Shown here piece after piece: positions 3,401 through 28,287 of a DNA stretch of 43,738 nt (positions are counted from its first letter, which is position 1; every line of letters starts with the position of its first letter). The notes below the pieces were generated by a model. It searched no databases. It was not told where the DNA came from and saw nothing but the letters and a program-made list of their open reading frames with translations. The position numbers and the translations under genes are program-made. The stretch lies in assembly GCA_021432655.1 (NCBI GenBank), contig MU271566.1:1-43738 (forward strand). Reading direction: 5' to 3'. This stretch comes from Atractiella rhizophila. Its lineage: Eukaryota.

Positions 3401-4197
3401 GAGGGACAACGGAAGATTGTCCTCGCATATCTCGTATCTATACTGATTTGCAGCATGGGACCCCAAAGTTGTTCGATGGGTACTATTTTGGCCATCACAT
3501 TGTGAATGTCGGTGCTTTGAATGATCATTCTGGGAAGGTTGGAAATCTTTCACTCGAGCAAGTTGATAACAGGTGAAGAGGTCACTGCTGAGCATCCAGC
3601 AACTGATATTATTTAGACTTCTTGATATTCAGCTCTACTTAGAGCTCTCTGGAAAGGAAAGACGTTCAAGACAACTTATCCATTCGTTGGTGAACTGCGA
3701 ACAGCCATCAGTCAAAGAACGCATTCGACTCCTCCATTGCGCCTACCAAGAATGGTACACCATCCCTATTCCGCTAATTGCAGCTGATCACATTTCTAAC
3801 GAGCTGAGACACTTCGAAAAACTGATATATTTCGATATAATCCTCCAGCATAAACGTACGATCCGAGTAGAGGATCTTGTTTGGATGCAATGCACAAGGG
3901 CATGAGGGCCAGCTTGTCATTCGAACAGCACGAGTGGATGAGATATTTATCCATGCACAAAGCAGCCAACATCGCATCTTTCTTAAACTTACGTGGTTCA
4001 AGGACATCGGAAGCTTCTCTCCTCTCATGCCATTAGTCCGTAAGTATGAGTTAGACATGATGTCTTCCATCGCAGGCATCGGCATTCTTTCAAGTTCTCG
4101 GGCAGCTCATTTTTTACCAAATTATAGGAAGCACAAATTCACCGACTCTGTGATTTCAAGTTATCTGTACAATCCATTAACAGTGGCAGTGGCATAG
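495..4197 (+). pseudogene. CMC/EnSpm(Plavaka-related)-like DDE transposase with probable C-terminal BAH-like domain, inactivated
   Basis: Motifs EMWHGDFWHES, FYFDKFGVFRTSHRTCGGLY, GFVPFG, GDLPQMNEDAG..PCR, QTPFDISH and LPNMHLALHL resemble fungal CMC-like transposases. ORFs 462 and 2265 share a frame across TGA 2160-2162. Intron ~3120-3178, TAG ~3286 and a frameshift near 3890. Confidence 0.7.
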
Positions 4198-4322
4198 TTG
4201 CAATTGATATTGTTAGTTAAGTGGTCCATTTGTGAACCAACATTCTGAATATCTTTCATAATACAAGTACAATTCATTGAGAGAAGCGGCGCAATTTGCA
4301 GTTCGTTTGTGACGTTTATGCG

Positions 4323-4851
4323 CTATCGGCTTTTCCTGCCACCTTCCGCTTGGAACATACTTAGTTGTTTGTTTACTCCCACCGGCAAAGGAGAAGGCAA
4401 AGGAAGACTCACGGGGTTCTTCTTCTTCCTTTTCGCAGGAGGATTCTCATCGTTAGTTGATGTTTCCGCTTCTTCAGACCTTGAGGCTTTTGCTTTAGGA
4501 GGGGCAAACTTCTTCAGATCCTCCATACTGGTACATACAGCCAGAAGGAATGAACTATAGTGATCCCCCATTCGATCTCGCCAAAAGCCCTATTGCTACC
4601 CTTAAACCTATCTCCCCATTCCAGCTATGAGCAAGAACACTCACCGGCATCAACGTCTCCAAATGCTCCACCGTGCTCATCGGTGACATTGCTCCCCTCC
4701 CCCCCTCCTCCCAGCTCCTCCTGAACATCTTCAATTCCTTCACTAGCATAGGAGGGTTTTGCAATAACTCCATCCCACCTTTACATATTTCCAGCGGAAT
4801 CGCGCGCTCACAGGTTGGCTCCGTCTTCCCCCTTTTCCTTTTCGATGACAT
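4323..4851 (-). pseudogene. Possible second (accessory) gene of the CMC-like element, basic/NLS-rich, frameshifted
   Basis: Overlapping ORFs MSSKRKRGK... and ...PPAKRKKKNP..., convergent on the transposase and inside the putative element end. No recognisable domain. Confidence 0.3.
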
Positions 4852-5639
4852 TGGGATGGCTTTGGATGCGGAGGTGTGGAGCACAATAGAGAGTCGTCGT
4901 TGATGTTTGACGTTGTGAGAACCGCGAGTCACGCTGACATTACCAAAGTGAGCGACTGCCAGCCTGAGCCTAGAGTTGCAAACATACCAAACTCAAGCGC
5001 CTGCTCCAGTGGAAGCAGTGTTGCTTTACTTTCTCGTTGGTATCATCCTGCTTCAAAGACCTGATCAGCCAGATAACGGGATCGCTGCGAATGAGGTGGC
5101 TGGACTGCATAATCACGCAAGAAATGACGGTACCCACTCCCCACTCCGATAAATCTAAGAGATAACATACCTTGGTTCCAGCACAAAGAAGAAGGTCGCT
5201 AACACGTGTCACGACCTCTGTGGCCATTCTCCATCTACTCCGACATCTTTGCTAACCCTTAGACTATCCTCAAACTACTCACGCATCACAACTGCCCAAT
5301 GGTTGACCAAGCGTTGTCGACAGCCGAACCAGATATCCCAGCATTTTCAAAGTTGCCAACGATGGCTCCTGCTTCTCATCAGAGTCAATATATAATCGGC
5401 AATGAAATGAAAAGCACTACACATTATTGCTATTGTGGTCCACAGCTTCGTGAGGAGTGATGGAACATGGCTAAGTGCCAGTGCGATGTGACGCTCATGG
5501 ATCGTTAATGGCCAATCTAAGCCGAATTGGCATTAATCTCGTTTCGGTTGGAGGACAATACGAAGGTTCTTCTCACGTCCTTGCCACATAAACTAGCAAG
5601 CATGGAGCAATCGTCAACAAGCGAAGATAACTGTTGTTG

Positions 5640-5880
5640 CAGTCGACAATGATGGGACAATGATGCGACAACAATTTGACAATGTCGGGACAGTCGTGGT
5701 TGGTTGCTGGCCAAGTTTTGTTTGTCCCCGACGATTGAGCAATGCTCAAGACATAGGGGTGTAACCATACGATTACGGTTTGGACACAGTGTTATGCCAT
5801 TTCAATCAACGTCCAGTACCTACAAGCATTTTACTGACATTGGACAAGAATCCTGAAAAGGGACCCTGTTCCGGCTAGGG
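5640..5880. mobile_element. Right terminus of CMC/EnSpm-like element (ends ...CCCTGTTCCGGCTAGGG; CCCTA on the minus strand) with GACAA-rich subterminal repeats
   Basis: The terminal ~40 bp (5840-5880) recur at 27232-27270. Clustered GACAA(T) motifs at 5641-5700. The left TIR is not in the window. Confidence 0.55.
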
Positions 5881-6322
5881 AGTCGATTTGGTTTGAGCTT
5901 GAATTGCAAAGCGTCGGTCGCACTTCCTTTCAGAAACCAGAAAAGAAACGATTACATTGATTTGAGTTCGACTAAGTACGAAACAAGAAACCAAAGCCAA
6001 TAGAGCAGAAGATTAGACGAATATCAGACAGTGAATCGAAAAGGAATGGAAAGAGGATCGACATCCTTCCAAACGGAAGGCATTCCATGTCTCAGCCGCT
6101 GCTCATCGAACCACCTCGCATCAATAACCTTGCTCTGTCATCTCACTTTCGAAGTCCTGAGCTGTATATTAGATCTCCTTCCATCCTCCTTTTCATTAGT
6201 CCGCCTCCTTCTCTCAACCAGCAGCGCTCTTCTCCTTCTCCAACCCGTCGCCTCTTTCTTCGAGACTGAGCAATCTATTCCTCTTTATAAGTCAAAAACC
6301 CCTTATAGTTCCGCTCCGTAAC

Positions 6323-7780
6323 CTAAGCCTCCAGAATCCATGAGCGCTTATCCTCCTCACACACCCTACATTCCCTCATAGTCGCCCTAGCGATCCCGAT
6401 CTCCCATTCAAGCCACGCTCCAAAGAATAACCGCACACTTAACATCTTCACTTGCACCTCTTCAGATTCATGCTCCACATTCCCCTCCAATATCTTCTTC
6501 TGCCGCTTTGCAAAGAACCAACGGACAAAGTCTGGGAAATCGTCCCAGTCCACGACACAGTACTGGACTCTTATGCCTTGGATCGCTGATGCATTTTTCA
6601 GACTGCTGAAGAAGTGGAAGGGTACCAGGTTTGAATTTTCTTCGCCACCGTCGAGGTAGAGCTCAGTGAGTTGCGTGAGGTATGATAAGTCGAATGGAGC
6701 GGGCAGAATAGATATGCTTCCATCAGTCGAGAAGGGGGCGAGGGTGAGAGTGAGAGATTCTAGAACAGGAGGCAGAACATTGCCACAGAAAGACGGGGGG
6801 AGAGGACAGACATAGGAGAGAATCAGTTCGTGCAAGGTGTGCGGGAGGGAGAGTGATGGCAAAGGCGGGTACCGTCCAAGGCCTAGCTTTAAGAGACCAG
6901 GAGGTAACAAAAGGCTAGTAGATCCTGAAGACGCTGTCGAGAAGGCAGACGAAGTGTCCTCCACGTCGTAAACACTGAGCCTTTTGAGGCTCCCGTTCAC
7001 CCTCGACACAAAATCCTCGACCTCGTCTTTCCTCCACTTTCTCGTACCTTTAAAAAGTTTTACATCATCCAACCACTTCAAGCTTGCAATCGCATTCAAC
7101 ACTATTCCTGCCTCCTGTTCATTCCAAAGTGCCCTCACCGTCACTTGTGTAACGTTTGGAAAGGCTGCGATGACCTCTTCCACCAGTGCAACGCTCATAT
7201 ACTGATGAAACCGCAGATCTCTCCAGAGACATCCAGCAGCAGGGTACAGTCCTGACGGAGCATGATGCTCGTTCATAGAGGTAGCTTGGTTTGGACAAGC
7301 AGCTGAGATGGCTTTCCACGCCGGCAGCAGTTCGCCATGGAATGTGGCAGCAGAGTTCCATTCGCCCGCAACGTCATCCACTTCCCCAGCTACAACAAAA
7401 TCAAAGATGTAATACATAAGCTCAATGGGAAGGCGAGAGATTGGGGCAAACGCTGGGCTTGAGAGTGACAGTTGAATAAGGTTCGCATGGCCGCTATCCC
7501 TCTTCCATAATTCGTTATCAGCGACTGGGACATAACTTCGAAAAGCGATGTAAGTGGCGATGGGAGCGAAGATCGCTACAGAGCGATTTTCTGGAAGGAG
7601 AGGAAAAGTGAGAGTAAATGGTAGCATCTGACCCTCTCGATTGACGCAAGCATCTGTCCCATCTCCAAAAACTACTATAATATTTTCCCGATCGAGGGTC
7701 ATACAAAACTTTGCTATCCCGTCGTCCCTAATAGAAGTTTCGAGGCATGGAAGTGAGAAACAGGTCAATTTTGACGACAT
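6323..7780 (-). CDS. F-box-like / leucine-rich-repeat protein (start uncertain; ORF is open up to 8119, inside an LTR)
   Basis: F-box-like ISRLPIELMYYIFDFV, followed by LPxxLxxLxL repeats (LPPGLLKLGL, LPHTLHELIL, LPPVLESLTL). Long uninterrupted ORF. Confidence 0.7.
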   Translation of the reverse strand: MSSKLTCFSLPCLETSIRDDGIAKFCMTLDRENIIVVFGDGTDACVNREGQMLPFTLTFPLLPENRSVAIFAPIATYIAFRSYVPVADNELWKRDSGHANLIQLSLSSPAFAPISRLPIELMYYIFDFVVAGEVDDVAGEWNSAATFHGELLPAWKAISAACPNQATSMNEHHAPSGLYPAAGCLWRDLRFHQYMSVALVEEVIAAFPNVTQVTVRALWNEQEAGIVLNAIASLKWLDDVKLFKGTRKWRKDEVEDFVSRVNGSLKRLSVYDVEDTSSAFSTASSGSTSLLLPPGLLKLGLGRYPPLPSLSLPHTLHELILSYVCPLPPSFCGNVLPPVLESLTLTLAPFSTDGSISILPAPFDLSYLTQLTELYLDGGEENSNLVPFHFFSSLKNASAIQGIRVQYCVVDWDDFPDFVRWFFAKRQKKILEGNVEHESEEVQVKMLSVRLFFGAWLEWEIGIARATMRECRVCEEDKRSWILEA

Positions 7781-7966
7781 CTCCACTAGATCGTCCGGAG
7801 TGAATTCAACAGGAAAAGCCACTGTGATCTGCAGCGTCGCAGGTGATGGATGAAGGCTGGATATGAAAGAGGGGAGAATGGAGAGCCCCAGCGAGTGGCA
7901 CCGTCCTGGGGTGATAACATTGACAAGTCCGCTGGAGTTTTGTGGCTCAGAATCCTGCTTAATTGT

Positions 7967-8256
7967 TGTCAGATGCATAAGGATGAGAAGAAGACAGCAA
8001 CAGACAAATGTTGGGTTCAATCTGTCTTGCCTCTGGGTTGTCCCTGTTTCACCCATCTCGACTTGGACTGTTCTCAGCTTAATTTTGAGAGGGAGAATTG
8101 TGCGCTGAACCTGGTCCACAGCAGATGGTGGTCAAATCGCTGTCTACAATGCAATGAACTCCCTACCTTGGTCCACAGCGGCAAATCGCTTGTGGAACCA
8201 GAACACGACCCTAACCCTAAGCGTAGAATGGAAGGGTTAGAGCTCAGGCTCTCACA
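7967..8256 (-). repeat. 3' LTR of Ty1/Copia element (~290 bp)
   Basis: Minus-strand PPT GAGTGAGTGGGGGG (8270-8257) is followed directly by TGTGAGA. Candidate end TCTGACA at 7967 forms a 6/7 terminal inverted repeat. Lies downstream of the Copia RNase H. No second LTR is present to confirm the end. Confidence 0.65.
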
Positions 8257-8459
8257 CCCCCCACTCACTCGGTGCCCAAAGAAAGAAACCAGTACCAGAA
8301 AACTCCAGAAGTAAAATAGAACGATAGTGAAGTATCAATGAGTAGCAGATACCATGTAATGAAGGTAAACAAAAGACTAATTCAACTGGATAGCAAAGAA
8401 GTATCAACACAGAAAGTCAATGAACTAGAATGGTAATAAAAGTCAACAAATCCAACAGC

Positions 8460-9604
8460 ACAAAAAAACGTGAATATCTATGTATGATGTATATGAATCC
8501 GTTCAGCAAGTGCGATATCCCCTTCGTCATCACATCCGCTACCATCTCCTGTGTCGGTATCCACATCAGTATCACCTCACCCTTATTTATCATTTCACAG
8601 ATAAAATGATGATGAACATCGACATGTTTCGTCCTGCTGTGGTTAGAGGATGTTTGGCCAGTGTGAGCATCCCTTGATTGTCGCCTTTGATCGTCGTCAG
8701 CGCATTCTGAGGGAATCCTAACTCAGTCAGCAACGCTCGTAACCAAACCGCCTCCCTCGCCGCCGATGAGAGCACTATGTATTCCGCTTCCGTAGATGAG
8801 ATCGCCACAGTCAGTTGCATCTTAGGTATCCATGAAATCGCAAACCTCCCTAGTCTGAAAACAACCCCTGAATCGATCTTCTGGTGTCAATATCAGATGC
8901 ATGGTCAGAGTCAGAAAAACCTTCTATAAAAGTGGATCCTGTGTTGTCCCAAATCAGTCTAAAGTGTAAGGTTGCAGCAAGTTATCTGAAAATCCTCTGC
9001 ACCCAAGCCCGATGTCGACAACCAGGATTGGAGTTGACTCGAGCCGCCCAGTTTACTGCAAATAGTATGTCTGGCCTGGTATTAACTGCTGCATATATCA
9101 GTGCTCCAACTGCCTCCCTGTATGGCTTCTCCTACATGTACTTACGCTCCTCATCAGAGTTGGGCGCCCATTCTCTCGATATTTTCTCGTCGATATCGCA
9201 GGGAGTCTTGACGTGATTGCATTGAGTCATTCAAAACCGTTCAAGACATTTCCTGATATAGCTTTCCTGATCCAAAGTCACTATGCTGTTAGTCTCGTCC
9301 CAAGCTATCCTCATCCCCAAAAGGTACCAACAGAGGATGTGGTGATTGTGAATTGTGATCGAAGCAAATCAAATAACCTGTCAATCAATGTCCGGAACAA
9401 TGCTACTATCGATCCGTCATCCACATGAAGGCATGATCGTTACCTCCTCCCCCTCCTTCTGGATGTACGCCCTGTGATCCGCATTGGTCCTGATGTAGCC
9501 TTGTGGCATAAGGAAGGTGTGAAGCGTATCATTCCAACCGTTTCCTGCCTGTCACAGTCCGTAAAGCGTCTTCCGTAATCGGAATACCTTCGATGGCGCA
9601 TTGG
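8460..9604 (-). pseudogene. Copia pol 3' part (RT C-terminus + RNase H)
   Basis: [45 protein letters not shown]; frameshifted. Confidence 0.9.
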
Positions 9605-10045
9605 TGTTAGGGCTGACACTATGTGCGGTCGCCGACGGGCGATGCGTCTGTAGTGGAGGTAAACCTAAGAGAATACTCTGAGGTCACCACCACTACATCT
9701 CAATGTATATATACATATGTAAAGGCACTGCCATAAACTGTAACATACGTTTCTTGAAACATGTAAGACAACTAGATCAGGAAAGTAATAAAGGGAATAC
9801 TCGGAAGTAAAACATACTAAGCAGTACAAGTGAGAAAGTATAATAAGGCAATAACGGAGACGGTGCAGACCGGCGAAACGTATAAGGTTTGCTGAGCGGT
9901 GATTCGTGTGAGATAAGGGAAAACAGCGGTCAGTGCAAACATGAGCAAAGCGGCGTTGGGTAGGTACGTGATTCTACGGCATGGTAAAGTAGGTCATGTG
10001 ACTGTAGGTGGTGCATTTCGGTAATGCATAGGGGCAAGCCTGATA
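9605..10045 (-). repeat. Gypsy 3' LTR (type A)
   Basis: TGTTAGGG...CCTGATA, adjacent to the PPT at 10046-10055. Ten differences from 17877-18317. Confidence 0.95.
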
Positions 10046-10170
10046 ACAACCCCCAAATTTCTGACTAGTGTACGTGAGTCACGGAATTTTAAGGTTAAGG
10101 TTTGCGGCTAGCTTGGGCGAAAAATTCTTCCAGTTCTACCACCATCACCTTCCCCTTTATTCTTGCAAAA

Positions 10171-11882
10171 ATGTCGACCGACGCACAACTCTTCGACTTC
10201 ATTCTGGCGAACAAAGATAGGAAGGATAGTACTGTTTACTGGGATGTGGAGAAGGCGAAGGAGGTGAACTTTGGGCGATTCGCCGATATGCTGGAGTGGG
10301 GAAAAAGATGTTATCCTCTGTATGTCAAATTTTGTGATGAGGTGCAGGCAGAGGTGAGCTTTTTTGTCTTGCATATTGTGGTTGGGCGTGTGTGTAACCC
10401 GTCGCCGATGGAAAGGTGCGAATGGCTTATGAGGCTGCCAAAGGGTTTGGAGATGGGCGGGTTTTGTCGTTCCCACTGTGGATGCCTGTGGAAGCCCTGC
10501 AGGCATTGCGGAATGAACTTCGGCTCTGGGTCGAACAAGTGGTGCTCGTCAAGGAGGATGCAGTGAAACTCGGCTTTCAGCCTTCTGAGTCGGCGAATGG
10601 TGACCCTGTTTTGCGAAGGAAAGAATGAGAGCTTTTCTTGTCAGACACGAAAAAACGCTTGGCGAAGGAAGAAGAGGAACGAAAATGGGCAGCGCTTGAA
10701 AATAAACGTCGAGCGGCAGAGGAAAACTTGCGCGTTCAAAGGTAGATTTCGGCAGCAAAAGGACCCGAGGTTGGGGTTGTGAGGACCCTGTCTGACCATC
10801 TGGTTACTGCGACTACCTTTGTTTTGCCTGCAGCTTTGGGGGATCGAAACCCGTTCGCCAGTGCGCCGGTCGCCGAATTCGTAGTGCACGACGGGAAAGT
10901 GCGAGTCAGTGACAAGGAGTTGGATGTGGCGAAATACCGTTACTTCTGGCCAGGTACTCGTGAGGCTTATTCTCACGCTGCGGAGAACATCAATCTGGGT
11001 GAGTTGGAACTCGAATTGGTTATCACGACCCCTCGGGCGAATCTGCGTATCCTTCCCACGTTAGCGAGCATCGGAACGCAGCGATGTAGTAATTGTACCG
11101 GAAAAATTCGAGCGGCACCCGTCAAAGCGGCGAAAAAGAAGGCTAAAGCCGACAATGAGTCTCAGGTCTGCGACTTCTTCGCTGCGCATGTCGCAACCGC
11201 GTTCGGTCGGATTTGTTCGCGTTGTCATAGTTCGCGAAAGAGGTGTGAGGTTTTGCCTTTGGGGTCTTTGCGAGAGCTTTCTATGCTAGTCGTAATGTCG
11301 ACTACTTTCCATCCTAAATGCATCGGCGATGGGAGAAAACGTCCATCAGCTTTCGCCGAGAGTAATTACAAGAACGTGTCGGACGCCAATAAGGACTCTC
11401 CTTCGCATTCTATGTTGAGCGCTGCCCGGTTGTACTCCGAAGCATTCAGCATGGATTTTGCACAAACGATGCTCGAGGCTGCCAGGTTGAATGCGCAAGC
11501 GGCGGCGGACGCTCTTAAGGCTGCTGAATTGCAAACGGAATTGTTTAAAAGGAGGCAGGATGAACGTGCAGCGGAGGATGGGGCTAGTGAGGGTTCTGAG
11601 CTGGAAGATGTGATAGCCGATGTGACTGGTAGGTGAGTTTATCTGTTTTTTTGGCGATCCGTCTGACTCTCTAGATGTTGTTTAGGCATCGTAGGGCATT
11701 TGACCCGTCGCCAGCTGCAAAAAAGTCGTCGCATCGGCGAAATGGAGTTTCGACTCGGCGACTTAAAACCTTCATTGGCCCAAGAGGCTTATGACAATTC
11801 CAACTATGATGCGTATTCTGTTTCCTTCTCGAGTAGCAGTGATAGTGAGGAGTCTGTCCAGAGTGGTGATTTTGAACTGTGA
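10171..11882 (+). pseudogene. Spliced antisense accessory gene within the Gypsy 3' region; coiled-coil-like and Cys-cluster (CxxC..CxxC-x6-C) protein
   Basis: Exons 10171-10353, 10416-11632 and 11675-11882 join in frame via GTGAGC..AAG and GTGAGT..CTGAC..TAG introns. Two internal stops (TGA 10626, TAG 10743). CSNC and CSRCHSSRKRC motifs. Confidence 0.7.
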
Positions 11883-12371
11883 AATGTATGTTTTGCGTCT
11901 CCGTATCGGCGGCAAATTCCCGGTCGGCGACATGTGTAGATTGCGTCATAGTGGCATAAGCGTTGTGGTGAGTGGGGAGAACATTGGCACAGTAGGTGAT
12001 GCAGGACTCACACTCCCCTGTCTAGGGGAGGACCCTCAGGCGTTCCTCCCACTAGCTACCCAAGCTTATTATGGAGCTCGCAACCACATAGGCCTGGGCC
12101 ACGCGCTGGTGGACACAACGTGCAGTATAACGTGTCGGCGGTTTACATGCTCGTCGCCAGTCTGTCTTCTTTGTGGGGTAGTGTGTTGTCGAGCAAACAA
12201 AGATGGGAAACCAAAGGATAAAAAGTAAAAAATAGAACACCATAAATATCAAACCAAGACAAGGTGTGAGATGAAAGGGAGCATTGTGTACCTCGCAATT
12301 GAGGAATTTTCGGGTTTTGACCGGTGTTGTTTTGGTGCAATAAGCAACCATTTTGCGAAAATGGGGTGAGT

Positions 12372-12730
12372 GACTCACCAACAAACTGGTCGCCGATCTG
12401 TCCGTTGAGGAACAGACCGGCACCTCACTTAGACCTATGTTCAACAGTGTGACTAGGGATTCACCCAGTGAGGCATATAGAGGAGTAGGACCTCTTAAAG
12501 TGAGGGGGAGGGGACCTCACGATTGAGGGCAATTTTCATAAATGCGACATTGGTGATGGTGCGAGAACGCAATGAGCATTCGTCTACAACGGGCGACGAA
12601 TGGACTCACCAACGACCAAGTCGCCAACTTGCCCGTTGAGGAGCAAGTCGGCACCTTGCCTTGACCTAAGTATCAAAGACTAGGATTTCACCCGGCAAGG
12701 CATATAGGGGTGTTGGACCCCTTAAAGTGA
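12372..12730. repeat. Degenerate ~130-bp direct repeat in Gypsy 3' UTR (12372-12503 and 12603-12730)
   Basis: Both copies read GACTCACCAAC...CCGTTGAGGA...GACTAGG..TTCACCC..GGCATATAG...CTTAAAGTGA. Confidence 0.8.
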
Positions 12731-15700
12731 TGAAGACCCTTCAGCGCGTTTTCGTCGGAGGTTACGAAAGCGTGCATTTGGGTGATGTTTTGCGGAGTTC
12801 GGTGTGGACTCGGGACGAACGGCAAGAGGGTGTGCAGTGTGATAGTCTTTTATGGCATCCTGCGAATTTTCTAGATCTGCGATGTTGATCCATTCGTCTT
12901 CAGATGGGGAATACCCTTTGTATTGAACGCGATATTTGAAAACTCTATTTCGGGTACCGAACCATTTTCCATCGACAATTTTTTCCACTTCCCATTCTTC
13001 AATTCCATTCACCAATTCCGGAGGTGGGTTTGGGCAACTGGACTCTGCCTGGGATGTCGTCTTCGTTGACTTTTCGTATTAGGCTCGCATGGAACACTGG
13101 ATGTATCTTCCATGAGGATGGCAACTCGAGTTTCAGGATGAGGGGAACCAAAACTTGCAAAATGCGAAAAGGGCCATGCCATTTGTCGTCCAACTTTTTG
13201 ACAGGTCTCGTCGATTTGATGTTTTTCGCGCTCAACCAGACGAAATCGCCCACGTGATATTCGGGCGCTGGTGCACGTTTTCTGTCATAATGTTTTGCCA
13301 TGAGATCTGCTGCTTGCTCAAGTAACGCCTGTGCTTCCCGGTCGGCGATTTGCATCTTTTTGACGAATTGCGCCGCTGTGGGAACGTCCTCATCGGAGAT
13401 GGGTTCAAAGGCCATGCGGGGATGTTGACCGCAATCGAGCGAAAATGGAGTTACGCCTGTCGCCGAACTGACGCGATTGTTGAGTGCAAATTCTGCGTTG
13501 GGAAGTCCTTCCACCAAATTATCTTGAAGAAAAGGCGCAAATATTGTTCAACCTCTTGGTTCATACGTTCAGTCTGACCATCACTTTGCGGGTGATAGGC
13601 TGTCGATGGTGAACCTTTGATACCTAATAGGCGAAAAAGTGCGGATGTGAATTTGGACACAAACTCTTTGTCTTGATCGAAAATTGCGACATCGAAAAGT
13701 CCATTTAACTTCCATAGGTGATCGCGAAAAAGTCTTGCAAGGCCTTCTGCATCCATCGTCGAATGGGTGGGGATGAGATGGGTGCGTTTTGAGAGTCTGT
13801 CTACTATGACGAAAATCGTGTCAAACCCCCCAGATTCTGGGAGTGGTCCAACCAAGTCCATGCTGACAATTTGCCACCGACGAGTGGGAATGTCATTTGG
13901 TTGCAAAAACCCTACGGGAGGGGAAGGAAAGTTTTTTGTTCTGTGGCAAGTGTGACAGGCGCCGACATAGCGGCGAACGTAATGCGCCAAACCTGGCCAC
14001 CAGTAGTACCTTTTTACGAGAGCTGTCGTCGATTTTACGCCTGGATGACCGGCGATTTGTGAATCGTGCAGGTCTTGCAAAATGATCGGCGAATTTCGTC
14101 ATCTCGGGGAATGTACAGTTTTCCGCGAAAATAGACAGTACCCTCGACTTCTTGCCATTCTCGTCGGCGAATAGAGTCGACTGGTTCATCTAGGATCTCT
14201 CTCAAAGCTTTGACTACTTGTTCTTCCCGTCCAGGCACCTTTTTCACACGTTCCAGTATACTTAACTCCGACTTTTGTCTTGTGAGCGCAACTGTGCTAC
14301 CGTTAGCGTTGATGGTGATACGGTCCGTATTGAAAAATCTTTCCGGGAGTAACACTACGTCAAAGTTGTCACAAATCGCCAGTTTGTGATCTGGTCGCTG
14401 ACTGAGCGCTCTGGTTTTGTGGAGTTTCGTCCAGGACGGTGTAAAAGAGTGAAGTTAAAAGAAGCAAGTTCGGTGATCCAGTGCGCTTGTCGCCGATTCA
14501 ACTTTTGTGGCATTCTGAAATACTCGAGATTTTTGTGATCAGTCAAGATCAGAAATGGCTCTTCAGTGCCTTGAAGAAGGTGCCTCCATTCTTCTAGTCC
14601 CCGTATAATCGCGAGCATTTCTTTGTCATAGGTGTCATAGTTCCTCTGGGCGGCATCGAGCGATTTTGATACGAAACCGAGAGGATGAAACTTCCCATCT
14701 GGCTTCTTCAAAATTTTTATATTTAATTATTATATAATTTGTGACAAAACGGCGCCTGTCACGAAATTCGACGCATCGACTTCGAGTAGAAATCGCCCCA
14801 TTTGTTCGGGATGTGCCAAAACGGGCGCCGAAGTCATCAGATGTTTCGGAGCGGCGAACGAACGTTGTTGATCCACCCCCCCAGACCCAGGGAATCTCCA
14901 ATTTCGTCAGGTCGTATAAAGGTAGTGCAATGTGACTGAATCTGTCGCAAAAGCGGCGATAGAAATTAGCGAAACTGAGAAACATTTAGACATCCTTTTT
15001 GTTTTTTGGTTCTGGCCAATCCAGCACACCTGCAACTTTTACTGGATCTGGTTCGAACCCTCTGCTGGTAATTATCAATCCTAAATACTCCACTTCGCTC
15101 TGACACCAAACACATTTTTGCAAGCTAACATAAAGCCCATTTTCGCGCAAAATTTGACAAACTCGTCGAACACGTTCCCAGTGTTCTTCTTCTGTCTCCG
15201 TCGCAATCAGGATATCATTGATGTACATGAAGATGAACGCAGTGGCGATCATCGTGCGAAAAATAGAGTTCAGGAAAGCCTGAAAAGTCGCTGGTGAGTT
15301 GCAGAGTCCGAAATACATCACCAACGTTCGAAAAGGCCACGATTTGACGAAAAACCGCTTTGTGTTCGTCTCCTTCTTTGATACGAACATTGTTGAACCC
15401 TTTCCTCAGATCAATTTTGCTGAAAAACTTCTTAACAGAAACCATGGAAAAGAGGTCCGCCTGAATGGGGAGTGGGGTCTTATCTTTGACTGTGGCTTCG
15501 TTCAGCTTCCGATAATCAAAAACGGGACGAAGTTCGGATGAGTCTTTTTTGTGCGTGAAGAAAACGGAAGCGCCATGTTCCCTGTGCTAGGACGTATACG
15601 ACCGGCACTCAGTTCGGCGTCAATGAATTGATTGAGCGCCGCTTGTTCGTCTCTTTTCAAGGGGTAGACGGGACCAGCATATGGTTGAGCTTCTGGCTTG

Positions 15701-16371
15701 AGGTCGATGGCATGGTCCCAAGGTCGTCGAGGAGGAAGCGATGTTTTGAATTTTTCATCGTTGAAAATGTCTGCAAAATCGGTGATTTGCATCGGTATTT
15801 CGACAATGTTCTTTGGTCTCATTGCCGCTGCGTCTTTCGCCAGTTTCTGCGATTTCGTCATGGCGGCTCGTATCGAGGTGGACGATGACTGGAAGCATTC
15901 GCGAGTGGTAGACACGTCATCTGCATTGTAACTGGTAGGGCAACGAGAGAACTCAACTTTCCCTGAGTCCCAGTTTATCTCTGGGTTGTGGTGTCTGAGC
16001 CAGTCATGACCCAGAATCATGTCGACAGTCCCCAACTCCGCCACAGCGAATTGCCAAACTTCGTGGTGAGTGGCGATCGAAATGGGCAAGTAAGCAACAG
16101 AATGAACAGACCCCCTCTTGATTGAGAGATCCGTCAATGTTGTAAACGGATACTGGGGAAGGAAGTTGAGTGACAGGCAGGTTGTATGCGGAAACAAGTT
16201 TTGGGGAGATAAAGGAAGTGGTGGCCCCACTGTTAAAGAGCGCCGATGTGGCGTGTCGGCGATGGGAATGTGGATGATGGAATGTGGTTCTGAGCTTCGG
16301 CTTCGAACTGACAAGGGATGCTGTTGTCGAGCGTAAATGGACTTTGTCATACATTTTTGCAACTTCTGCAC
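12722..16371 (-). pseudogene. Gypsy pol (protease, RT, RNase H, integrase, chromodomain), frameshifted
   Basis: ALFNSGAT (PR, D>N); FSKIDLRKGF and YINDILI (RT, D>N); RNYDTYDKEMLAI and TDHKNL (RH); HDSQIAGHPG and AYHPQSDGQTER (INT); EEWEVEKIVD..YKGYSPSEDEW (chromodomain). Confidence 0.95.
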
Positions 16372-16559
16372 ATCTCTGTCTCCAGGAGGGAAAATGCAAT
16401 TTCGGGAATGGAGAGTCTTGCTCAGATGAGGGGAATACTGTGCTGAGCGGCGTTTTGTTGGAAGTGATTTTGGATGACGTAAATGAATTGCAAGTCGGCG
16501 ATGGGGACACTTCTTTCACCCACTGCCGTCCTAAAAATCCTCTTCTAGATCACCTGATT

Positions 16560-17837
16560 GGCTAATACTCATTTTCAGCGATTGGTCGGCGCTTTGCGCA
16601 AATTGTCGATCTTGGTGTTTCATTTTTGAATCGAAATATTCTCCTTGGGCTCAGAGATATTGCTCCTTGTTCATGGATGTCCTACACTCCCTTTCTCGGT
16701 GGCCCATCTTCTGGCATCGCCTGCAACGGGGAGGTCTCGATTTTGTCGCATCGACCTCCATGTCATCGGGGTCTTTGATTCTGTGAGCGTGCGTAGCGGC
16801 GTTTGGTGATGAATCGGTGATCGTTGACAAAGCGGCGCTCGGTCGATACGCTATGGGTGTTCTGCTCTGCCTGTGTTTTGTTGATTTTGAGCTGTCTTTT
16901 CTGGTAGAAAACGTATTCTGGGGGCCGTCCTTCGTCGATGGGATGTTTTGAAAGAAAGTTGAATGGGCAGTTTCTTCTGCATCAATTCGTCGAGCCTTTT
17001 CTTTCCATTCTTCCAGCGATTTTGGGAACTCCCCTTGGGTTACTTTGAGATGTAGTGTAGGATTGAGTCCTCGTTTGAAGAAGAAAGTGAGAGCTTCATC
17101 ATCAAAGTCAGCCTGATTTGCTAGTTCTTCAAATTTGATGATGTAGGTTTCTAGGTTCCCCTTTGTTGGAGAGAAGATATTTTTGTTTGTGCAATGAGTT
17201 TGTGGTCTGTCTTACAGAAACGCGATTTGAACTCCGACAAAATTGTTCCCACGAAATTTGTTCCTCGTTTTCGACAAGTCGGCGCAAAATCCCAGCGGCG
17301 AATTTTCCGCATATCCTTCTTTCATGTAAGAAAGGGTAAATAGGATTTTCGATTTTTTGGTCGGAAATTGGCCTGGAACAGTAGAAGTGTAGACGTAAAT
17401 TTCGCGTAAAAATGTCGGAGCTGTGTTGGGTACTCCTTTGAAGATTACAGGTGTGGCAAGTTTGATACCTGCATATGGTGCAACTTGGGGAGTTTGGGAT
17501 ATAGAGGGGGGAGAGAAAGCTTGAGGTGTTGGGTCCGTTCGCGATAAAAAGGGGAAGTGGTTCCACTATCTCTAGGAGGGGGTAGTCTGGAATCTAGCAA
17601 TTGTAAAATTCGGTCATTTGTGTTTTGGACGTCGGACCTCAGTTGCGCAATTTCGTGCGCATTTTGGGAGGTTTGCGCATTTTGTTGGTTGAAACTTGTT
17701 ATGAGGTCTTGTTCGATTTTTTTGGATTGCTTTTCAGTCATGAGATATAGAGTTTGGAACATCCTTTCTAAGTGTTGGATGCATTCCTCGCTCGTCGGCA
17801 GTTCGCGCGTTTCCATGTCTCCCCAAACCTCCGACAT
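16560..17837 (-). pseudogene. Gypsy gag, degenerate
   Basis: Minus-strand ORF fragments between the 5' LTR and the protease, with a coiled-coil-like N-terminus (MSEVWGDMETRELP...) and an FFKRGLNP motif. Confidence 0.75.
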
Positions 17838-17864
17838 TTTTAAGTTTCGTTTTTGAAAGGGAAG

Positions 17865-17874
17865 AGAGTATCCT
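17865..17874 (-). promoter_or_regulatory. Non-tRNA primer-binding site, probable self-priming (Tf1-type)
   Basis: No TGG after the 5' LTR. Minus-strand AGGATACTCT is complementary (one G:U pair) to AGAGTATTCT at 17951-17942 in the LTR, 34 nt after the start of TATATATA. Confidence 0.55.
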
Positions 17875-17876
17875 TC

Positions 17877-18317
17877 TGTTAGGGCTGACACTATGTGCGG
17901 TCGCCGACGGGCGATGCGTCTGTAGTGGAGGTAAACCTAAGAGAATACTCTGAGGTCACCACCACTACATCTCAATGTATATATACATATGTAAAGGCAC
18001 TGCCATAAACTGTAACATACGTTTCTTGAAACATGTAAGACAACTAGATCAGGAAAGTAATAAAGGGAATACTCGGAAGTAAAACATACTAAGCAGTACA
18101 AGTGAGAAAGTATAATAAGGCAATAACGGAGACGGTGCAGACCGGCGAAACGTATAAGGTTTGCTGAGCGGCGATTCGTGTGAGATAAGGGAAAACGGCG
18201 GTCAGTGCAAACGTGAGCAAAGCGGCGTTGGGTAGGTACGTGATTCTACGGCGTGGTAAAGTAGGTCACGTGACTTCAGGTGGTGCATTTCGGTAATGCG
18301 TAGGGGCAAGTCTGACA
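17877..18317 (-). repeat. Gypsy 5' LTR (type A)
   Basis: TGTTAGGG...TCTGACA, 441 bp, followed by the TSD. Confidence 0.97.
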
Positions 18318-18322
18318 ATTGG

Positions 18323-20801: not shown

Positions 20802-21638
20802 TGTTAGGGCTGACACTATGTGCGGTCGCCGACAGGCGATGCGTCTGTAGTGGAGATAAACCTAAGAGCATGATATGACATGAAGACTAACCTGTAGTGG
20901 AGATAAACCTAAGAGAATACTCTAAGGTCACCTCCACTACTCTCCGATCTATATATACAAGCGGAATAGCACTGCCACAGAGTGTAGAGGAGAGGAGATG
21001 AAACATGTGAGAGAACTAAAAGGGGGAAGTGACAGTGGGATTATGCGGAGTTAATAAGAGGAGAATAGATACAAATGAGCTAAGTGATGACGCAGGCGCA
21101 AATGGGCGAACGGGCGCTGATTTGCACTGCGTGCAAATAGGCGATGCGAGATGCAGAGTGGCGACCGGGTGCCGATTCGCAGGGAACGCAAATGGGCGAT
21201 AGGAGACACAATCTGGCGAACAGGCGCCGATTTGCGTAAGATGCAAACCTGACAACACCCCCCAATTTCCGTGGTGCATGCTGCAGACAGAAACTTCTGT
21301 TTCGTGAGGTTTGCCGATTTTGCGAAAGTGTCTAAAGTACCAGCTCACAATTTGAGGAATTTTCAAAGTTGACCAGGTGTTGTTTTGGTGTAATAAGTGT
21401 CCATCCTGCGAAAATGGGCTGGACAACTCACCAACAAACCGGTTGCCGATCTGTCCGTTCAGGAACAGACCAGCGCCTCTCCTAGATCTATGTTCAACAA
21501 TGCGACTAGGGATTCGCCCGGCAAGGCGTGCAGAGGAGTAGGCTCTTTTAAAGTGAGGAGGAGGGGACCTCGTGATTGAGGGCAATTTTCATAAATGCGA
21601 AATTAGTGATGGTGCAAGAACGCAATGAGCATTCGTCT
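20802..21638 (-). mobile_element. Truncated sister Gypsy: type-B 3' LTR (20802-21254), PPT and 3' UTR block
   Basis: Same TGTTAGGGCTGACACTATG end as type A but a different U3. PPT at 21255-21263. 21337-21638 is homologous to 12287-12585. Confidence 0.88.
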
Positions 21639-21639
21639 G

Positions 21640-23396
21640 ATATTGAAGACCTCTATCATGATCTTGGAGATGAATATGAGGACAAGATTGGAGAGTTTGT
21701 TATGCAAGTACAGACTATAACAGTGAGCTTGTTTTACTGTTGAAACACAGGGTTTTGAAAGATGCTTTCACTCCCAGGCTCAGAGTATTGTTAGTACATT
21801 TAGAACGCATGAAATTTCTGCTATCAAAGCAGAGAACGAGTTGAATCATCTGTTTGCTGTCTACAACCAGTCAATCAAAAGTCACTACACCAAAGAAATC
21901 ACGGAGTACCAGACGGATCAGCTACGCATACGCTCTCTATCTTTCGAAGAGGACGACAGCAACTCGCAATCTCTCCTAGCAAAAGAAGTTCCCCAGATGC
22001 ACATGGAGCCCGAAAGACTCCAGAGGTGGCCACCGAAGGCTGCTCTCAATCTTGGTGGTGCCAAAAGACCATCGGTTCATGCCAGCACTACAGGAGCTAG
22101 AGGAGGCGAAGGGAATGAAGCGCCGCCCTTGTCTACAAAGAAACATGGAGGAATGCAATGGGATCGTGATGAGGAGGGGAATTCAGAACTAGAGGAGGAG
22201 GAGGAGGAGGAGGAGGAGATGTCGTTGAGAAAGCAGAAGAAGATTAACTCAACCAAAAAATAGCCAAACATGCGAACTCAGCGAGAAGAGTCTAATGAGG
22301 ATGCGCCTGCTCAGGTGCTGAAGAAGGGGGTGAAGAAGAAGGGTTTAGATTTTGATGGATTCTGGGCAGACGAAAGTGGGAGCGCTACGATGGAGTTTAT
22401 GGAAGGAAAGGTTTATCTGCCTGTAAGTTTTCTTTATTAATATTGGTCCTGCTAACGGCTTGAACAGGAACAGTACTACAATGAACAGATTCTAACATTC
22501 AATAAGGCAATGTTTCTAAAGACATTCATTTATGAAGTTGGAGGGGTTGATCAAACTCTCGGAATCTTGCAGCAGATCGGGAAGGGGCAAGGTCATGTTG
22601 CTCTGGGATTCCCAGAGAGGGGGTCTTTCTACGTATGTCCTACATTATTCAGCTTAAAGATTGCTCAGCTTTATATAGGACAATGTTCGCTCCCAGATTA
22701 GTTGTCGCAGAAATGAATAATGCCTGCCGACTCTACCTACTTTCTACAGGCTGGATTGTTAGTTCAACTGGTCAAGGTCACATCTGGACCGAAAAGAGAC
22801 GGTGATGCTGACGGTTCTAAGATAGGACTAACCTCATTGACAAGGCGAAGAAGAAAGATGGGCAGACTACCACTCTCAAATCCAAGAAGAGTTTGTTCAA
22901 ACTGATTCTGTCTAGCTGAAAATCACTTAAGACGGGTGACGATCGTCTTCCTCTATCTGGAAAGGAGCTCATCATGAAAACGTTTGGCCAAATTGCTGGA
23001 GAAGGAACTCAACTCGATCAACTGCGCTGGACGGATGGAAATGCAAAGAGTGGGAGTGTGGAATGGAATGGAAATTTATTAGCAGACAGGGCATTGATGG
23101 GTGTCAGGATTGAAGCCTGTATGGTTGCGATGGGAAGTATGGTATGTCTCTGTTACCTGGTTGAACCCTTATCTCATCCTGTCATAGGACATTGGCTACA
23201 TCTGACCATCAACCTTGTCCAAGCCTTTCTAATCGACAGCGATGTTGAGATCGAAAGAGCGGGTTTCCAGCTGCTGCCACCAGCTTTCCACAAGCAAAAG
23301 ACACCACGTTTCCGACAAGTCGAACATGACGATAAAGACTTTGATGACTTCCTCATTGGAATGATGGAAGAAGGAGAGGACGATAACGATGTATAG
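21640..23396 (+). pseudogene. Degenerate multi-exon gene of unknown function, 5'-truncated at the Gypsy fragment
   Basis: Coding-like exons separated by GT-AG introns (e.g. ~22423-22467). Acidic/basic tracts, in-frame stops, acidic C-terminus. Confidence 0.45.
22192..22218 (+). repeat. (GAG)9 microsatellite, poly-Glu
   Basis: Direct reading. Confidence 0.9.
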
Positions 23397-27231: not shown

Positions 27232-27270
27232 TTGGACCAGGATCTCAAAAAGAGCCCTGTTCCGGCTAGG
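27232..27270. mobile_element. Second copy of the CMC-like right terminus
   Basis: TTGGACCAGGATCTCAAAAAGAGCCCTGTTCCGGCTAGG versus TTGGACAAGAATCCTGAAAAGGGACCCTGTTCCGGCTAGG at 5840-5879; last 16 bp identical. Confidence 0.6.
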
Positions 27271-28265: not shown

Positions 28266-28287
28266 TCTGAGAGCTATTTTGTTGGAT

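What the first reader, a model, noticed from the sequence alone, without database searches (positions are those of the whole stretch)
10171..11882. Chromovirus carries an intron-containing antisense accessory gene
Seen: between pol and the 3' LTR, on the opposite strand, lies a three-exon ~535-codon gene starting 125 bp from the LTR. It has a charged helical region, a Cys cluster (CSNC..CSRCHSSRKRC, partly reminiscent of Zn2Cys6) and an acidic tail. Established: introns can survive retrotransposition when antisense to the genomic RNA. Inference: a dedicated regulatory or anti-silencing gene driven by reverse promoter activity of U3. I cannot assign a family.
Basis: partly seen in the sequence, partly recalled or inferred. 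Interest (0 to 1): 0.75.

Follow-up and report, generated by a model that had tools for sequence, protein, structure and literature searches.

The report
Antisense accessory gene in fungal retrotransposon
A decayed gypsy-type retrotransposon of a root fungus carries, on the opposite strand behind its polymerase gene, a lineage-specific intron-containing gene that its sister copies share, but here it is broken by two stop codons and resembles accessory genes already known from other retrotransposons.

Summary
A chromodomain Ty3/gypsy element lies on the minus strand (9605-18317; 444/441-nt LTRs, TSD ATTGG). Between its chromodomain and 3' LTR a plus-strand ORF starts at ATG 10171, 122 nt from the LTR. 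Exon 1 (10171-10353) joins exon 2 (10416-) across a 62-nt GT..AG intron.

Seven annotated Atractiella rhizophila proteins share the ORF, and two of their models make the same junction. One model starts inside an LTR of this family, so the gene belongs to the element family and is not a private insertion.

Three corrections:
- This copy is a pseudogene. In-frame TGA (10626) and TAG (10743) stand where paralogs have Arg and Ser, and gag-pol is frameshifted too.
- The third exon with the acidic tail has no support. A two-exon, 467-codon gene ending at TGA 11634 is the simpler model.
- The Cys cluster fails the Zn2Cys6 spacing and gets no Pfam hit.

No homolog exists outside this species in 1.84 billion representatives, and AlphaFold models are unreliable. 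I found no RNA data and could not measure dN/dS, so expression, promoter and function stay inferred.

In kind it matches known antisense aORFs (Boty brtn, Grande, Retand, HBZ-like layout). Moderate interest.

The parts
9600..9604 (.). Target-site duplication ATTGG, left copy.
   Evidence: the same pentamer flanks the element at 18318-18322.
9605..10048 (-). 3' LTR of the minus-strand element (444 nt). It reads TGTTAG...TAACA on the plus strand.
   Evidence: 97.95% identical over 439 nt to 17877-18315. There are 9 substitutions (8 transitions), all within 9900-10039, plus a 3-nt indel at the inner end.
9989..10133 (+). Candidate 145-nt leader intron (GTAGGT...TTCTTCCAG) spanning the LTR end and the PPT. 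This is a lead only.
   Evidence: paralog model P0002 joins ...HGK|FYHHH.... In the window this corresponds to a donor at 9989 and an acceptor at 10131-10133. It rests on one gene model, with no RNA evidence.
10049..10060 (-). Polypurine tract of the element. It appears as ACCCCCAAATTT on the plus strand.
   Evidence: it lies directly inside the 3' LTR and is conserved in the related fragment at about 21290.
10171..10353 (+). Exon 1 of the antisense gene, from the ATG through 61 codons (MSTDAQLFDF...CDEVQAE).
   Evidence: Six paralog models start with the same MSTD.... Codon-usage score is best in this frame.
10354..10415 (+). Intron 1, 62 nt, GTGAGC...AAAG. It moves the reading frame from phase 1 to phase 0.
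   Evidence: P0003 and P0004 read EVQ.E|VRT.YE across the equivalent junction. tblastn places the paralog halves at 10171-10356 and 10413 onward. The laid DNA contigs show no joint here, so the DNA copies keep the intron.
10416..11636 (+). Exon 2: 406 codons plus the TGA at 11634-11636. It holds two premature in-frame stops.
   Evidence: It is 70-87% identical to the A. rhizophila models.
10626..10628 (+). Premature stop TGA. Paralogs have Arg here (RKERELF).
   Evidence: the 5 of 5 paralog models that cover the site (P0003-P0007) have R.
10743..10745 (+). Premature stop TAG. Paralogs have Ser (TCG).
   Evidence: at 10744 all 5 (X1) and 4 (X2) contigs counted read C instead of A.
10644..10742 (+). 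Highly charged Lys/Glu/Arg helix (DTKKRLAKEEEERKWAALENKRRAAEENLRVQR).
   Evidence: In the AF2 model, helix 78-113 of P0001 has block pLDDT of 53-80.
11085..11246 (+). Six-Cys cluster (C-x2-C-x24-C-x14-C-x2-C-x6-C) enclosing a basic KKKAK stretch at 11109-11156.
   Evidence: Only the window and P0002 keep it whole. No Pfam family at E<=10. AF2 pLDDT is below 35 here.
11629..11685 (+). Candidate intron 2, either 11633-11674 (42 nt, GTGAGT..CTCTAG) or 11629-11685 (57 nt, GTAGGT..GTTTAG). Unverified.
   Evidence: One search shows the motifs only; an extra G behind 11631 in 4 contigs of each run would change the phase.
11675..11882 (+). Candidate exon 3 with the Ser/Asp/Glu-rich tail, ending at TGA 11880-11882. 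Unverified.
   Evidence: One search shows the open frame; no protein with this tail; the codon score of its frame (0.081) is not the best of the six.
12372..12730 (.). Non-coding spacer holding two diverged ~130-nt direct repeats (12372-12503 and 12603-12730), between the antisense gene and the chromodomain.
12722..13078 (-). Chromodomain at the C-terminal end of pol.
   Evidence: PF00385, E 2.4e-09.
13079..17876 (-). Remainder of gag-pol (SH3_Tf2-1, integrase, RNase H, RT, protease, CCHC gag). It is broken over many frames.
   Evidence: RVT_1 is split between two overlapping ORFs in different frames.
17877..18317 (-). 5' LTR (441 nt).
20802..21638 (-). Fragment of a related element. It holds an LTR, a PPT and about 85 bp, then the homolog of 12292-12585, so it lacks the ~2.2-kb module that holds the antisense gene.

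Best explanation
This is the accessory gene of one subfamily of an Atractiella chromovirus. It is an 'aORF-3R'-type gene sitting antisense between pol and the 3' LTR.

Its ancestral form was an intact two-exon ORF of about 467 codons: 61 codons, a 62-nt intron, then 406 codons. A short alternatively spliced 3' extension is possible.

Because the gene is antisense to the genomic RNA, its intron is never a splice substrate in that RNA and is copied into every new insertion (established logic).

The gene is most likely transcribed from a promoter in or just inside the 3' LTR. It may have a leader exon in the LTR spliced across the LTR/PPT border (inferred).

Its product has four recognisable parts: a small N-terminal domain, a charged helix, a conserved but unmodelled middle region, and a basic stretch with a six-Cys cluster followed by a long C-terminal helix. 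It most likely acts in the nucleus in trans on the element family, as a regulator of transcription, silencing or integration (inferred, weakly).

The copy in this window is dead. It has two nonsense codons in the accessory gene and multiple frameshifts in gag-pol, so it is a fossil of that arrangement.
For: SHOWN
- The element's anatomy and the gene's position and orientation are as stated.
- The frame is far more open than the other frames: 2 stops against 4-27. Only 22 of 5000 shuffles reach 2 or fewer stops in any frame.
- It has the best codon-usage score of the six frames in exon 1 (0.261 bits/codon) and exon 2 (0.171, next best 0.076).
- Seven paralogous gene models exist in A. rhizophila. 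Their pairwise identity is 59-95%.
- Six of the seven start at the same Met. Two reproduce the intron-1 junction.
- Laid DNA contigs give further diverged copies of 10049-11739, with 5-18% other letters in the listed pieces. None has a joint at intron 1.
- P0002's model starts in an LTR of this family and joins at positions that carry GTAGGT and CAG in the window.
- A related element fragment in the same window has LTR + PPT followed after about 85 bp by the 12292-like spacer. The ~2.2-kb gene module is therefore a discrete addition or loss.

KNOWN ELSEWHERE
- Analogous antisense genes are documented in Boty, Grande, RIRE2, Retand and PvRetro13. The Grande product is nuclear (PMC7264820 and PMC11963269, passages read).
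Against: - No RNA evidence: no RNA holder was listed.
- No measure of purifying selection was possible. The aa divergence among copies (5-25% for most pairs) and the 2 stops here are about what neutral decay from an intact master would give. The block-wise heterogeneity test was marginal (p 0.035) and is inflated by one alternative gene model.
- None of the seven paralog models is demonstrably full length and intact. P0003 is out of frame across the Cys cluster. P0002, P0005 and P0008 skip segments. P0004 and P0006 stop early. P0007 is chimeric with a DUF4218 tail.
- The paralog models are predictions on copies with the same structure. Their agreement on intron 1 shows conserved signals, not splicing.
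- There is no homolog outside the species, no Pfam family and no reliable fold, so the proposed activity has no direct support.
- The minus-strand frame opposite has only 4 stops.
Confidence: 0.55

Rival explanations
1. Passenger sequence. A piece of host or de novo sequence with an ORF was picked up once by an ancestor of this subfamily, by transduction, template switch or nested insertion. It has since hitch-hiked without serving the element, and the ORF is simply decaying.
For: - A related element lacks the module.
- Every copy examined has lesions.
- Divergence is compatible with neutrality.
- The protein is an orphan without recognisable domains.
Against: - No host homolog exists outside the family in 1.84 billion representatives.
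- An intact ORF of about 467 codons with a start codon and a phase-correct intron must have persisted through the amplification that gave at least 8 copies. Error-prone reverse transcription would not preserve that for free.
- The review of such aORFs notes that transduced passengers are usually found in one or a few copies (PMC7264820 abstract).
Confidence: 0.2
2. The functional product is the antisense RNA and not a protein. A transcript from the 3' LTR side pairs with the genomic RNA and feeds dsRNA/siRNA control of the element. The ORF is incidental.
For: - Antisense non-coding transcripts regulate other retroelements (micropia, TART and IAP in PMC7264820 section 8; Ty1 antisense RNA as cited in PMC4007536).
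- No protein family or fold could be assigned here.
Against: - The long open frame, the best-of-six codon usage and the conserved Met start are not expected of a merely non-coding transcript.
- No RNA data bear on this either way.
Confidence: 0.1
3. Not a gene. This is a chance or shadow ORF that gene predictors have modelled repeatedly because the same repeat occurs many times.
For: - The opposite-strand frame is also fairly open, with 4 stops.
- All supporting 'proteins' are predictions from copies of the same repeat.
- The Atlas recognition value of 1672 is below the level most known families reach.
Against: - Only 22 of 5000 shuffles give 2 or fewer stops in any frame, and the paralogs show that those two stops are secondary.
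- Codon usage favours the plus frame over the opposite one, 0.171 against 0.061.
- The frame change at 10354-10415 coincides with canonical GT..AG.
Confidence: 0.07
4. Remnant of an unrelated mobile element or gene that was inserted in reverse orientation into an ancestral copy, and was then propagated as part of it.
For: - The module has discrete borders relative to the aORF-less relative.
- A 14-nt imperfect direct repeat, GGAATTTT..GGTT, lies at 10083 and 12303.
Against: - There are no terminal inverted repeats or LTRs of its own, and no transposase-like or other TE domain.
- Sixteen similar short repeat families occur in the same 2.7 kb, so the flanking repeat may be chance.
- No free-standing relatives were found in any database searched.
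Confidence: 0.08

Closest known systems
brtn, the antisense additional gene of Boty / BcGypsy1 retrotransposons of Botrytis cinerea and Sclerotinia (Zhao et al. 2011, Virology 417:248). That paper is not held. I know it only through citing passages in PMC7264820, PMC8365987, PMC4227169 and PMC5987419.
   Same: Both are fungal Ty3/gypsy elements with a chromodomain pol. [quoted passage not shown]
   Different: - The hosts are Ascomycota there and a Pucciniomycotina basidiomycete here.
- My profile search found nothing outside A. rhizophila, so there is no detectable sequence relationship. I could not confirm that BRTN is in that library.
- I do not know whether brtn has introns.
Plant aORF-3R genes: maize Grande gene23, rice RIRE2, Silene Retand (TRP28 domain, PF04195) and Phaseolus PvRetro13 ORF2 (PMC7264820, PMC11963269).
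   Same: - Antisense ORF between pol and the 3' LTR.
- No clear database similarity.
- Suspected nuclear or regulatory role.
- Own promoter upstream of the ORF (Grande).
- Repeats in the pol-to-3'-LTR spacer (Retand). Two ~130-nt repeats lie there in this element.
   Different: - The plant elements named there include non-chromovirus lineages (Retand), with pol-3'LTR regions of 2.9-6.6 kb. Here a chromovirus has a 2.7-kb region.
- There was no Pfam match at all here, so no TRP28 or SMC match.
- The word 'intron' does not occur in the main text of either paper.
HBZ of HTLV-1 (as cited in PMC7264820 and PMC11963269). The splicing details are recalled.
   Same: - The protein is encoded antisense to the genomic RNA next to the 3' LTR.
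- The antisense promoter lies in the 3' LTR.
- A spliced form has its first exon in the LTR (recalled). One paralog model here suggests the same layout.
   Different: - HBZ belongs to a retrovirus of people and is a bZIP protein.
- Here there is no bZIP or other Pfam hit, and no transcript evidence.
Fungal Zn2Cys6 binuclear cluster (PF00172).
   Same: There are six cysteines, and the second half, C-x2-C-x6-C, fits the family. A basic stretch lies nearby.
   Different: - The first half is C-x2-C-x24-C instead of C-x2-C-x6-C.
- The linker is 14 residues.
- No Pfam hit even at E<=10.
- AF2 gives no fold.

Membership tests
Chromovirus (Ty3/gypsy LTR retrotransposon with chromodomain) | Two LTRs with a target-site duplication. 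| tested here: met
   LTRs are 9605-10048 and 17877-18317. TSD ATTGG.
Chromovirus (Ty3/gypsy LTR retrotransposon with chromodomain) | Domain order PR-RT-RNaseH-IN, with a chromodomain at the integrase C-terminus. | tested here: met
   RVP_2, RVT_1, RT_RNaseH, Integrase_H2C2 + rve, SH3_Tf2-1 and Chromo (E 2.4e-09) appear in this order on the minus strand. The reading frame is broken.
aORF-3R (antisense additional ORF between pol and 3' LTR; Vicient & Casacuberta 2020) | Located between the end of pol and the 3' LTR. | tested here: met
   The gene is at 10171-11636(/11882). The chromodomain ends at 12722 and the LTR ends at 10048.
aORF-3R (antisense additional ORF between pol and 3' LTR; Vicient & Casacuberta 2020) | Coding strand opposite to gag-pol. 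| tested here: met
   The plus-strand frame is best by stop count and by codon usage, and gag-pol is on the minus strand.
aORF-3R (antisense additional ORF between pol and 3' LTR; Vicient & Casacuberta 2020) | Present in many copies of the family, unlike a one-off transduction. | tested here: met
   There are seven paralog models plus further diverged contigs, and one model is LTR-adjacent. A related subfamily fragment lacks it. The context of the other copies could not be seen because no genome is held.
aORF-3R (antisense additional ORF between pol and 3' LTR; Vicient & Casacuberta 2020) | Transcribed in antisense from its own promoter. | not testable with these tools
   No RNA holder was listed.
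Zn2Cys6 fungal binuclear cluster (PF00172) | Spacing C-x2-C-x6-C-x5-12-C-x2-C-x6-8-C (recalled consensus), and a match to the Pfam model. | tested here: not met
   Observed spacing is C-x2-C-x24-C-x14-C-x2-C-x6-C. P0001 and P0002 have 0 Pfam families at E<=10.
HBZ-like antisense bZIP factor | bZIP basic region plus leucine zipper. | tested here: not met
   No bZIP or other Pfam hit. The charged helix is present but does not fit the N-x2-AA-x3-R spacing (recalled motif, by eye).
HBZ-like antisense bZIP factor | Antisense transcript initiating in the 3' LTR, with a spliced leader. | not testable with these tools
   There is only a gene-model hint, with GTAGGT at 9989 and CAG at 10131-10133.
Boty brtn family | Sequence homology to BRTN. 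| tested here: inconclusive
   The profile search of 1.84 billion representatives returned only the A. rhizophila family. I had no BRTN sequence to compare directly.

The most novel reading that the evidence does not exclude
An HBZ-like circuit in a fungal retrotransposon. A spliced antisense mRNA starts inside the 3' LTR, with a leader intron at 9989-10133. It encodes a lineage-specific nuclear coiled-coil / Cys-cluster protein. That protein recognises the palindrome TCG[C/G]CGA, which peppers its own element 19 times in 8.7 kb against 1.5 expected. The element family would then mark or protect its own copies, by self-directed transcriptional control or anti-silencing.
Probability: 0.05. Interest if true: 0.75.

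Novelty: new member of a known kind. Interest (0 to 1): 0.4.

Why it matters
Antisense accessory genes of LTR retrotransposons are repeatedly seen but functionally unexplained. The review I read asks explicitly for attention to antisense and spliced transcripts (PMC7264820, conclusion).

This case adds a basidiomycete (Pucciniomycotina) example with a clear phase-changing intron. A discrete ~2.2-kb gene module is present in one subfamily and absent from a close relative in the same 44 kb, which is a natural with/without comparison.

If an intact, expressed copy exists in the genome, two questions could be tested in a culturable fungus: whether such genes serve the element, and how an intron-bearing gene enters a retroelement.

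As it stands, the copy here is a pseudogene and the function is unknown, so the finding is a useful annotation and no surprise.

Tried and rejected
- Whole genome: none is held for this window. Copies, their context and dN/dS could not be collected.
- RNA: no RNA holder was listed. The two runs laid are DNA contigs of one sample and may be the source of the assembly. They are therefore not independent, and they cannot show expression.
- Summed contig depth is lower over 10104-12381 (about 2,500-7,900 in X1, apart from one bin at 15,320) than over 12382-13300 (about 21,000-34,000). The tool states that depth cannot rank parts or give copy number, so I do not use this as evidence.
- Metagenome scan with the family alignment: 594 pattern matches, none a relative.
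- Third-exon tail against proteins longer than 126 aa: nothing. This is weak evidence.
- Integrase of the element against longer proteins, to compare constraint with pol paralogs: the best hits are only 52-61% identical and none is named as A. rhizophila. No comparison was possible.
- AlphaFold2 gave a mean pLDDT of 44.2 for the 411-aa read-through and 33.0 for the middle domain plus Cys cluster. Both are too poor for a fold search, so none was run.
- The PDB profile search gave only phycobilisome linker hits at E 0.068-0.1, taken as chance.
- ESM Atlas: the best score was 0.87 to unnamed clusters. DUF3716 appeared at 0.77 as a lead not borne out by Pfam. P0004 gave nothing.
- Rfam over 9000-19000 and a tRNA scan found nothing.
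- Earlier findings of this scan: nothing by sequence, place or words.
- Block-wise heterogeneity of amino-acid variation among copies gave chi-square p 0.035. It is driven partly by P0006's alternative model, so it is inconclusive.
- I tried explaining the two in-frame stops by small introns, working by eye. Removing either candidate (about 37-46 nt around 10626; 92 nt at 10742-10833) changes the phase, and after the second the frame runs into a stop. Rejected.
- The 14-nt direct repeat at the module borders may be chance.
- One literature search failed on a term's syntax and was not repeated. The later search gave nothing closer than the papers already cited.
Full report
WHAT IS THERE

The window holds a complete but decayed LTR retroelement on the minus strand, 9605-18317.
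- Its LTRs (9605-10048 and 17877-18317) are 97.95% identical over 439 nt.
- Both ends are flanked by the pentamer ATTGG.
- A polypurine tract lies just inside the 3' LTR.
- Pfam finds, in this order on the minus strand, a CCHC knuckle, aspartyl protease, reverse transcriptase, RNase H, integrase (H2C2 + core), the Tf2-type SH3 domain and a chromodomain at 12722-13078. 'Chromovirus' is therefore correct.
- Gag-pol is split over many overlapping stop-to-stop ORFs in different frames, and the RT domain itself is divided between two frames. This copy is not autonomous.

THE ANTISENSE GENE

On the plus strand an ATG at 10171 lies 122 nt from the LTR end.
- It opens 61 codons that end at a GTGAGC donor (10354).
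- After an AG at 10414-10415 the reading continues in another phase from 10416 to 11633.
- That phase has 2 stops in 406 codons, while the other five frames have 4, 9, 11, 17 and 27. Only 22 of 5000 Markov-1 shuffles had 2 or fewer stops in any frame.
- A codon-usage score was trained on the 11 other long ORFs of the window. It is highest in exactly these frames: 0.261 bits/codon for exon 1, and 0.171 for exon 2 against 0.076 for the next frame and 0.061 for the frame directly opposite.
- The ORF is therefore real, and it is on the plus strand.

First, the frame contains two stops, TGA 10626-10628 and TAG 10743-10745.
- The 535-codon figure is reached only by reading through them.
- I found no intron that removes them in phase.
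- At the first stop, the 5 of 5 paralog models covering the site have Arg.
- At the second, the paralogs have Ser, and all contigs counted at 10744 (5 in X1, 4 in X2) read C, giving TCG.
- Both stops are therefore nonsense mutations of this copy.

Second, the third exon is unsupported.
- Two in-phase intron candidates exist (11633-11674 and 11629-11685).
- No protein longer than 126 aa carries the tail.
- The tail's frame is not favoured by codon usage.
- An extra G behind 11631 in 4 contigs of each run would put it out of phase.
- Without splicing the ORF ends at TGA 11634-11636, which gives 467 codons.

Third, the Cys cluster does not fit Zn2Cys6.
- Its spacing is C-x2-C-x24-C-x14-C-x2-C-x6-C.
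- It has no Pfam match even at E<=10.

IS IT A PROPERTY OF THE ELEMENT FAMILY?

- A word-indexed search of 5.8 billion proteins found six relatives, all 'hypothetical protein' of Atractiella rhizophila. Going by the differing longest-contig lengths, they lie on six contigs.
- A full HMMER profile search of 1.84 billion representatives found only three proteins, two of them among those six, and added a seventh relative, P0008.
- Pairwise identities are 59-95%.
- Six of the seven models start with the same MSTD... Met.
- P0003 and P0004 make exactly the exon 1 / exon 2 junction. P0006 uses another donor.
- The first 38 residues of P0002 map by tblastn onto the LTR (9857-9997, 18129-18269 and the related LTR at 37267-37410). 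They map in the same orientation as the gene.
- At least one other copy therefore sits next to an LTR of this family.
- DNA contigs of two runs from one sample, possibly the assembly's own source, contain further pieces of 10049-11739. These differ by 5-18%, and none has a joint at intron 1.
- The gene is therefore dispersed with its intron, as expected for a gene antisense to the genomic RNA.
- These models are predictions. They show that the signals are conserved, not that splicing occurs.

A NATURAL COMPARISON INSIDE THE WINDOW

At 20802-21638 lies a fragment of a related element.
- It has an LTR ending in the same ...CCTGA.AACA, followed by the PPT and about 85 bp.
- The homolog of 12292-12585 then follows at 85% identity.
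- In the element under study, 2,243 bp separate the LTR end from position 12292.
- The antisense gene therefore lies in a discrete ~2.2-kb module that one lineage has and the other lacks. Which state is ancestral cannot be told.
- A 14-nt imperfect direct repeat at 10083 and 12303 borders the module. Fifteen other short repeat families occur in the same 2.7 kb, so this may be chance.

WHAT THE PROTEIN IS

- No Pfam family was found, and no PDB relative beyond chance.
- There is no homolog outside the species, and no Atlas lead that survives.
- AlphaFold2 on the shallow alignment gives a mean pLDDT of 44. Only two regions reach 70-80: a charged helical region (residues 30-113 of P0001) and part of a long C-terminal helix (334-408).
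- The conserved middle region and the Cys cluster stay below 35, also when folded alone. I therefore ran no fold search.
- The sequence shows these parts:
  - a 61-residue N-terminal part;
  - a Lys/Glu/Arg-rich helix;
  - the best-conserved stretch (...GVVRTLSDHLVTATTFVLPAALGDRNPF...KYRYFWPGTREAYSHAA...);
  - a basic KKKAK stretch inside the six-Cys cluster;
  - a long Ala-rich helix.
- That is compatible with a nuclear, oligomerising, nucleic-acid- or chromatin-associated factor, but this is inference.

HOW IT MOST LIKELY WORKS

Shown:
- The position, strand and phase-changing intron of the gene.
- Its family-wide presence.
- The death of this copy.

Established logic:
- An intron of an antisense gene is not a splice substrate in the genomic RNA. 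It therefore passes through reverse transcription.

Inferred:
- Transcription starts in or next to the 3' LTR.
- The only hint is that P0002's model has a first exon in the LTR joined as ...HGK|FYHHH....
- In the window those points carry GTAGGT (9989) and TTCTTCCAG (to 10133). That would be a 145-nt leader intron across the LTR/PPT border, recalling the spliced HBZ transcript of HTLV-1 (recalled).

Weakly inferred:
- The product regulates the element in trans.

The rivals cannot be excluded. They are a functionless passenger, a regulatory antisense RNA, a chance ORF and a nested foreign element. No RNA run was listed, and without the other copies' DNA I could not estimate dN/dS. The amino-acid divergence among copies and the two stops here are about what neutral decay from an intact master would give. 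The block-wise test of uneven conservation was marginal (p 0.035). None of the seven paralog models is clearly intact over the full length.

COMPARISON WITH WHAT IS KNOWN

- Antisense additional ORFs between pol and the 3' LTR ('aORF-3R') are described for maize Grande, rice RIRE2, Silene Retand and Phaseolus PvRetro13.
- They are also described outside plants, for Boty of Botrytis and Sclerotinia (gene brtn) (PMC7264820, passages and section 5).
- Retand elements almost always carry an antisense TRP28-domain ORF, and often tandem repeats in the same region (PMC11963269, passages).
- Boty-like elements have a CHROMO domain and brtn (PMC4227169 passage; PMC8365987 passage).
- The original brtn paper is not held.
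- The present gene meets the positional and orientation criteria of that class and the 'many copies' criterion. Transcription is untestable here.
- It is not detectably related in sequence to anything outside A. rhizophila.
- The main text of the two aORF papers does not contain the word 'intron'. My two literature searches on antisense or additional ORFs in fungal LTR elements turned up no intron-bearing example. I cannot claim it is unreported.

VERDICT

This is a real, family-borne antisense accessory gene with at least one intron, in a new fungal lineage. This copy is a pseudogene, the gene model was over-extended, and function and expression are unproven. I rate it a new member of a known kind, of moderate interest.

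Noticed in passing
window 9605-18317 (and 20826, 37678, 39598): The palindromic 7-mer TCG[C/G]CGA occurs 19 times inside the element. A Markov-2 model expects 1.5, and the maximum in 300 simulations was 6. It occurs only 3 times elsewhere in the window, each time in a related LTR piece. CGGCGA occurs 28 times inside against 9 outside, and AGCGGCG 14 times against 0.73 expected. Ten of the 19 lie in 10280-12390. The sites fall in coding and non-coding parts and on both coding strands. No explanation.
   Followed up: partly
window 9001-18000 versus flanks: CpG observed/expected is 0.86-1.31 in the 1-kb bins covering the element, against 0.37-0.91 in the other bins. The element is unusually CpG-rich for its surroundings.
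   Followed up: no
window 9900-10048 versus 18172-18317: All 9 substitutions between the two LTRs, plus a 3-nt indel, lie in the 150 nt at the U3 end. The other 295 nt are identical. In 7 of the 8 transitions the 3' LTR has A/T where the 5' LTR has G/C. This suggests partial gene conversion, or locally raised C-to-T decay next to the antisense gene's upstream region.
   Followed up: no
window 20802-21638: Fragment of a related element with LTR, PPT, about 85 bp and then the homolog of 12292-12585. It lacks the antisense-gene module and is cut off at 21639.
   Followed up: yes
window 37221-37706 (minus strand) and 39574-39731: Further LTR copies or pieces of the same family, 89-98% identical over parts. 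They are probably solo LTRs or truncated elements. The copy at 37267-37410 keeps an ATG where P0002's model starts.
   Followed up: no
window 18266-20623 (minus strand) and 8417-8886 (minus strand): Their ORF translations look by eye like Copia-type RT and integrase pieces. The element is embedded in a repeat-rich stretch. I did not scan them against Pfam.
   Followed up: no
window 6323-8131 (minus strand): A 602-codon open frame with no Pfam family at E<=0.1. It may be a host gene of unknown function.
   Followed up: no
window 10085-10091: TGAGTCA lies about 80 nt upstream of the ATG, between the PPT and the gene. It matches the AP-1/Gcn4-type site as I recall it. It could be a promoter element or chance.
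   Followed up: no
protein P0007 (paralog model), residues 284-358: The C-terminal part of this A. rhizophila model matches DUF4218 (E 3.3e-4, below Pfam's cutoff). The model is therefore probably a chimera of the antisense gene and another transposon-related ORF.
   Followed up: no
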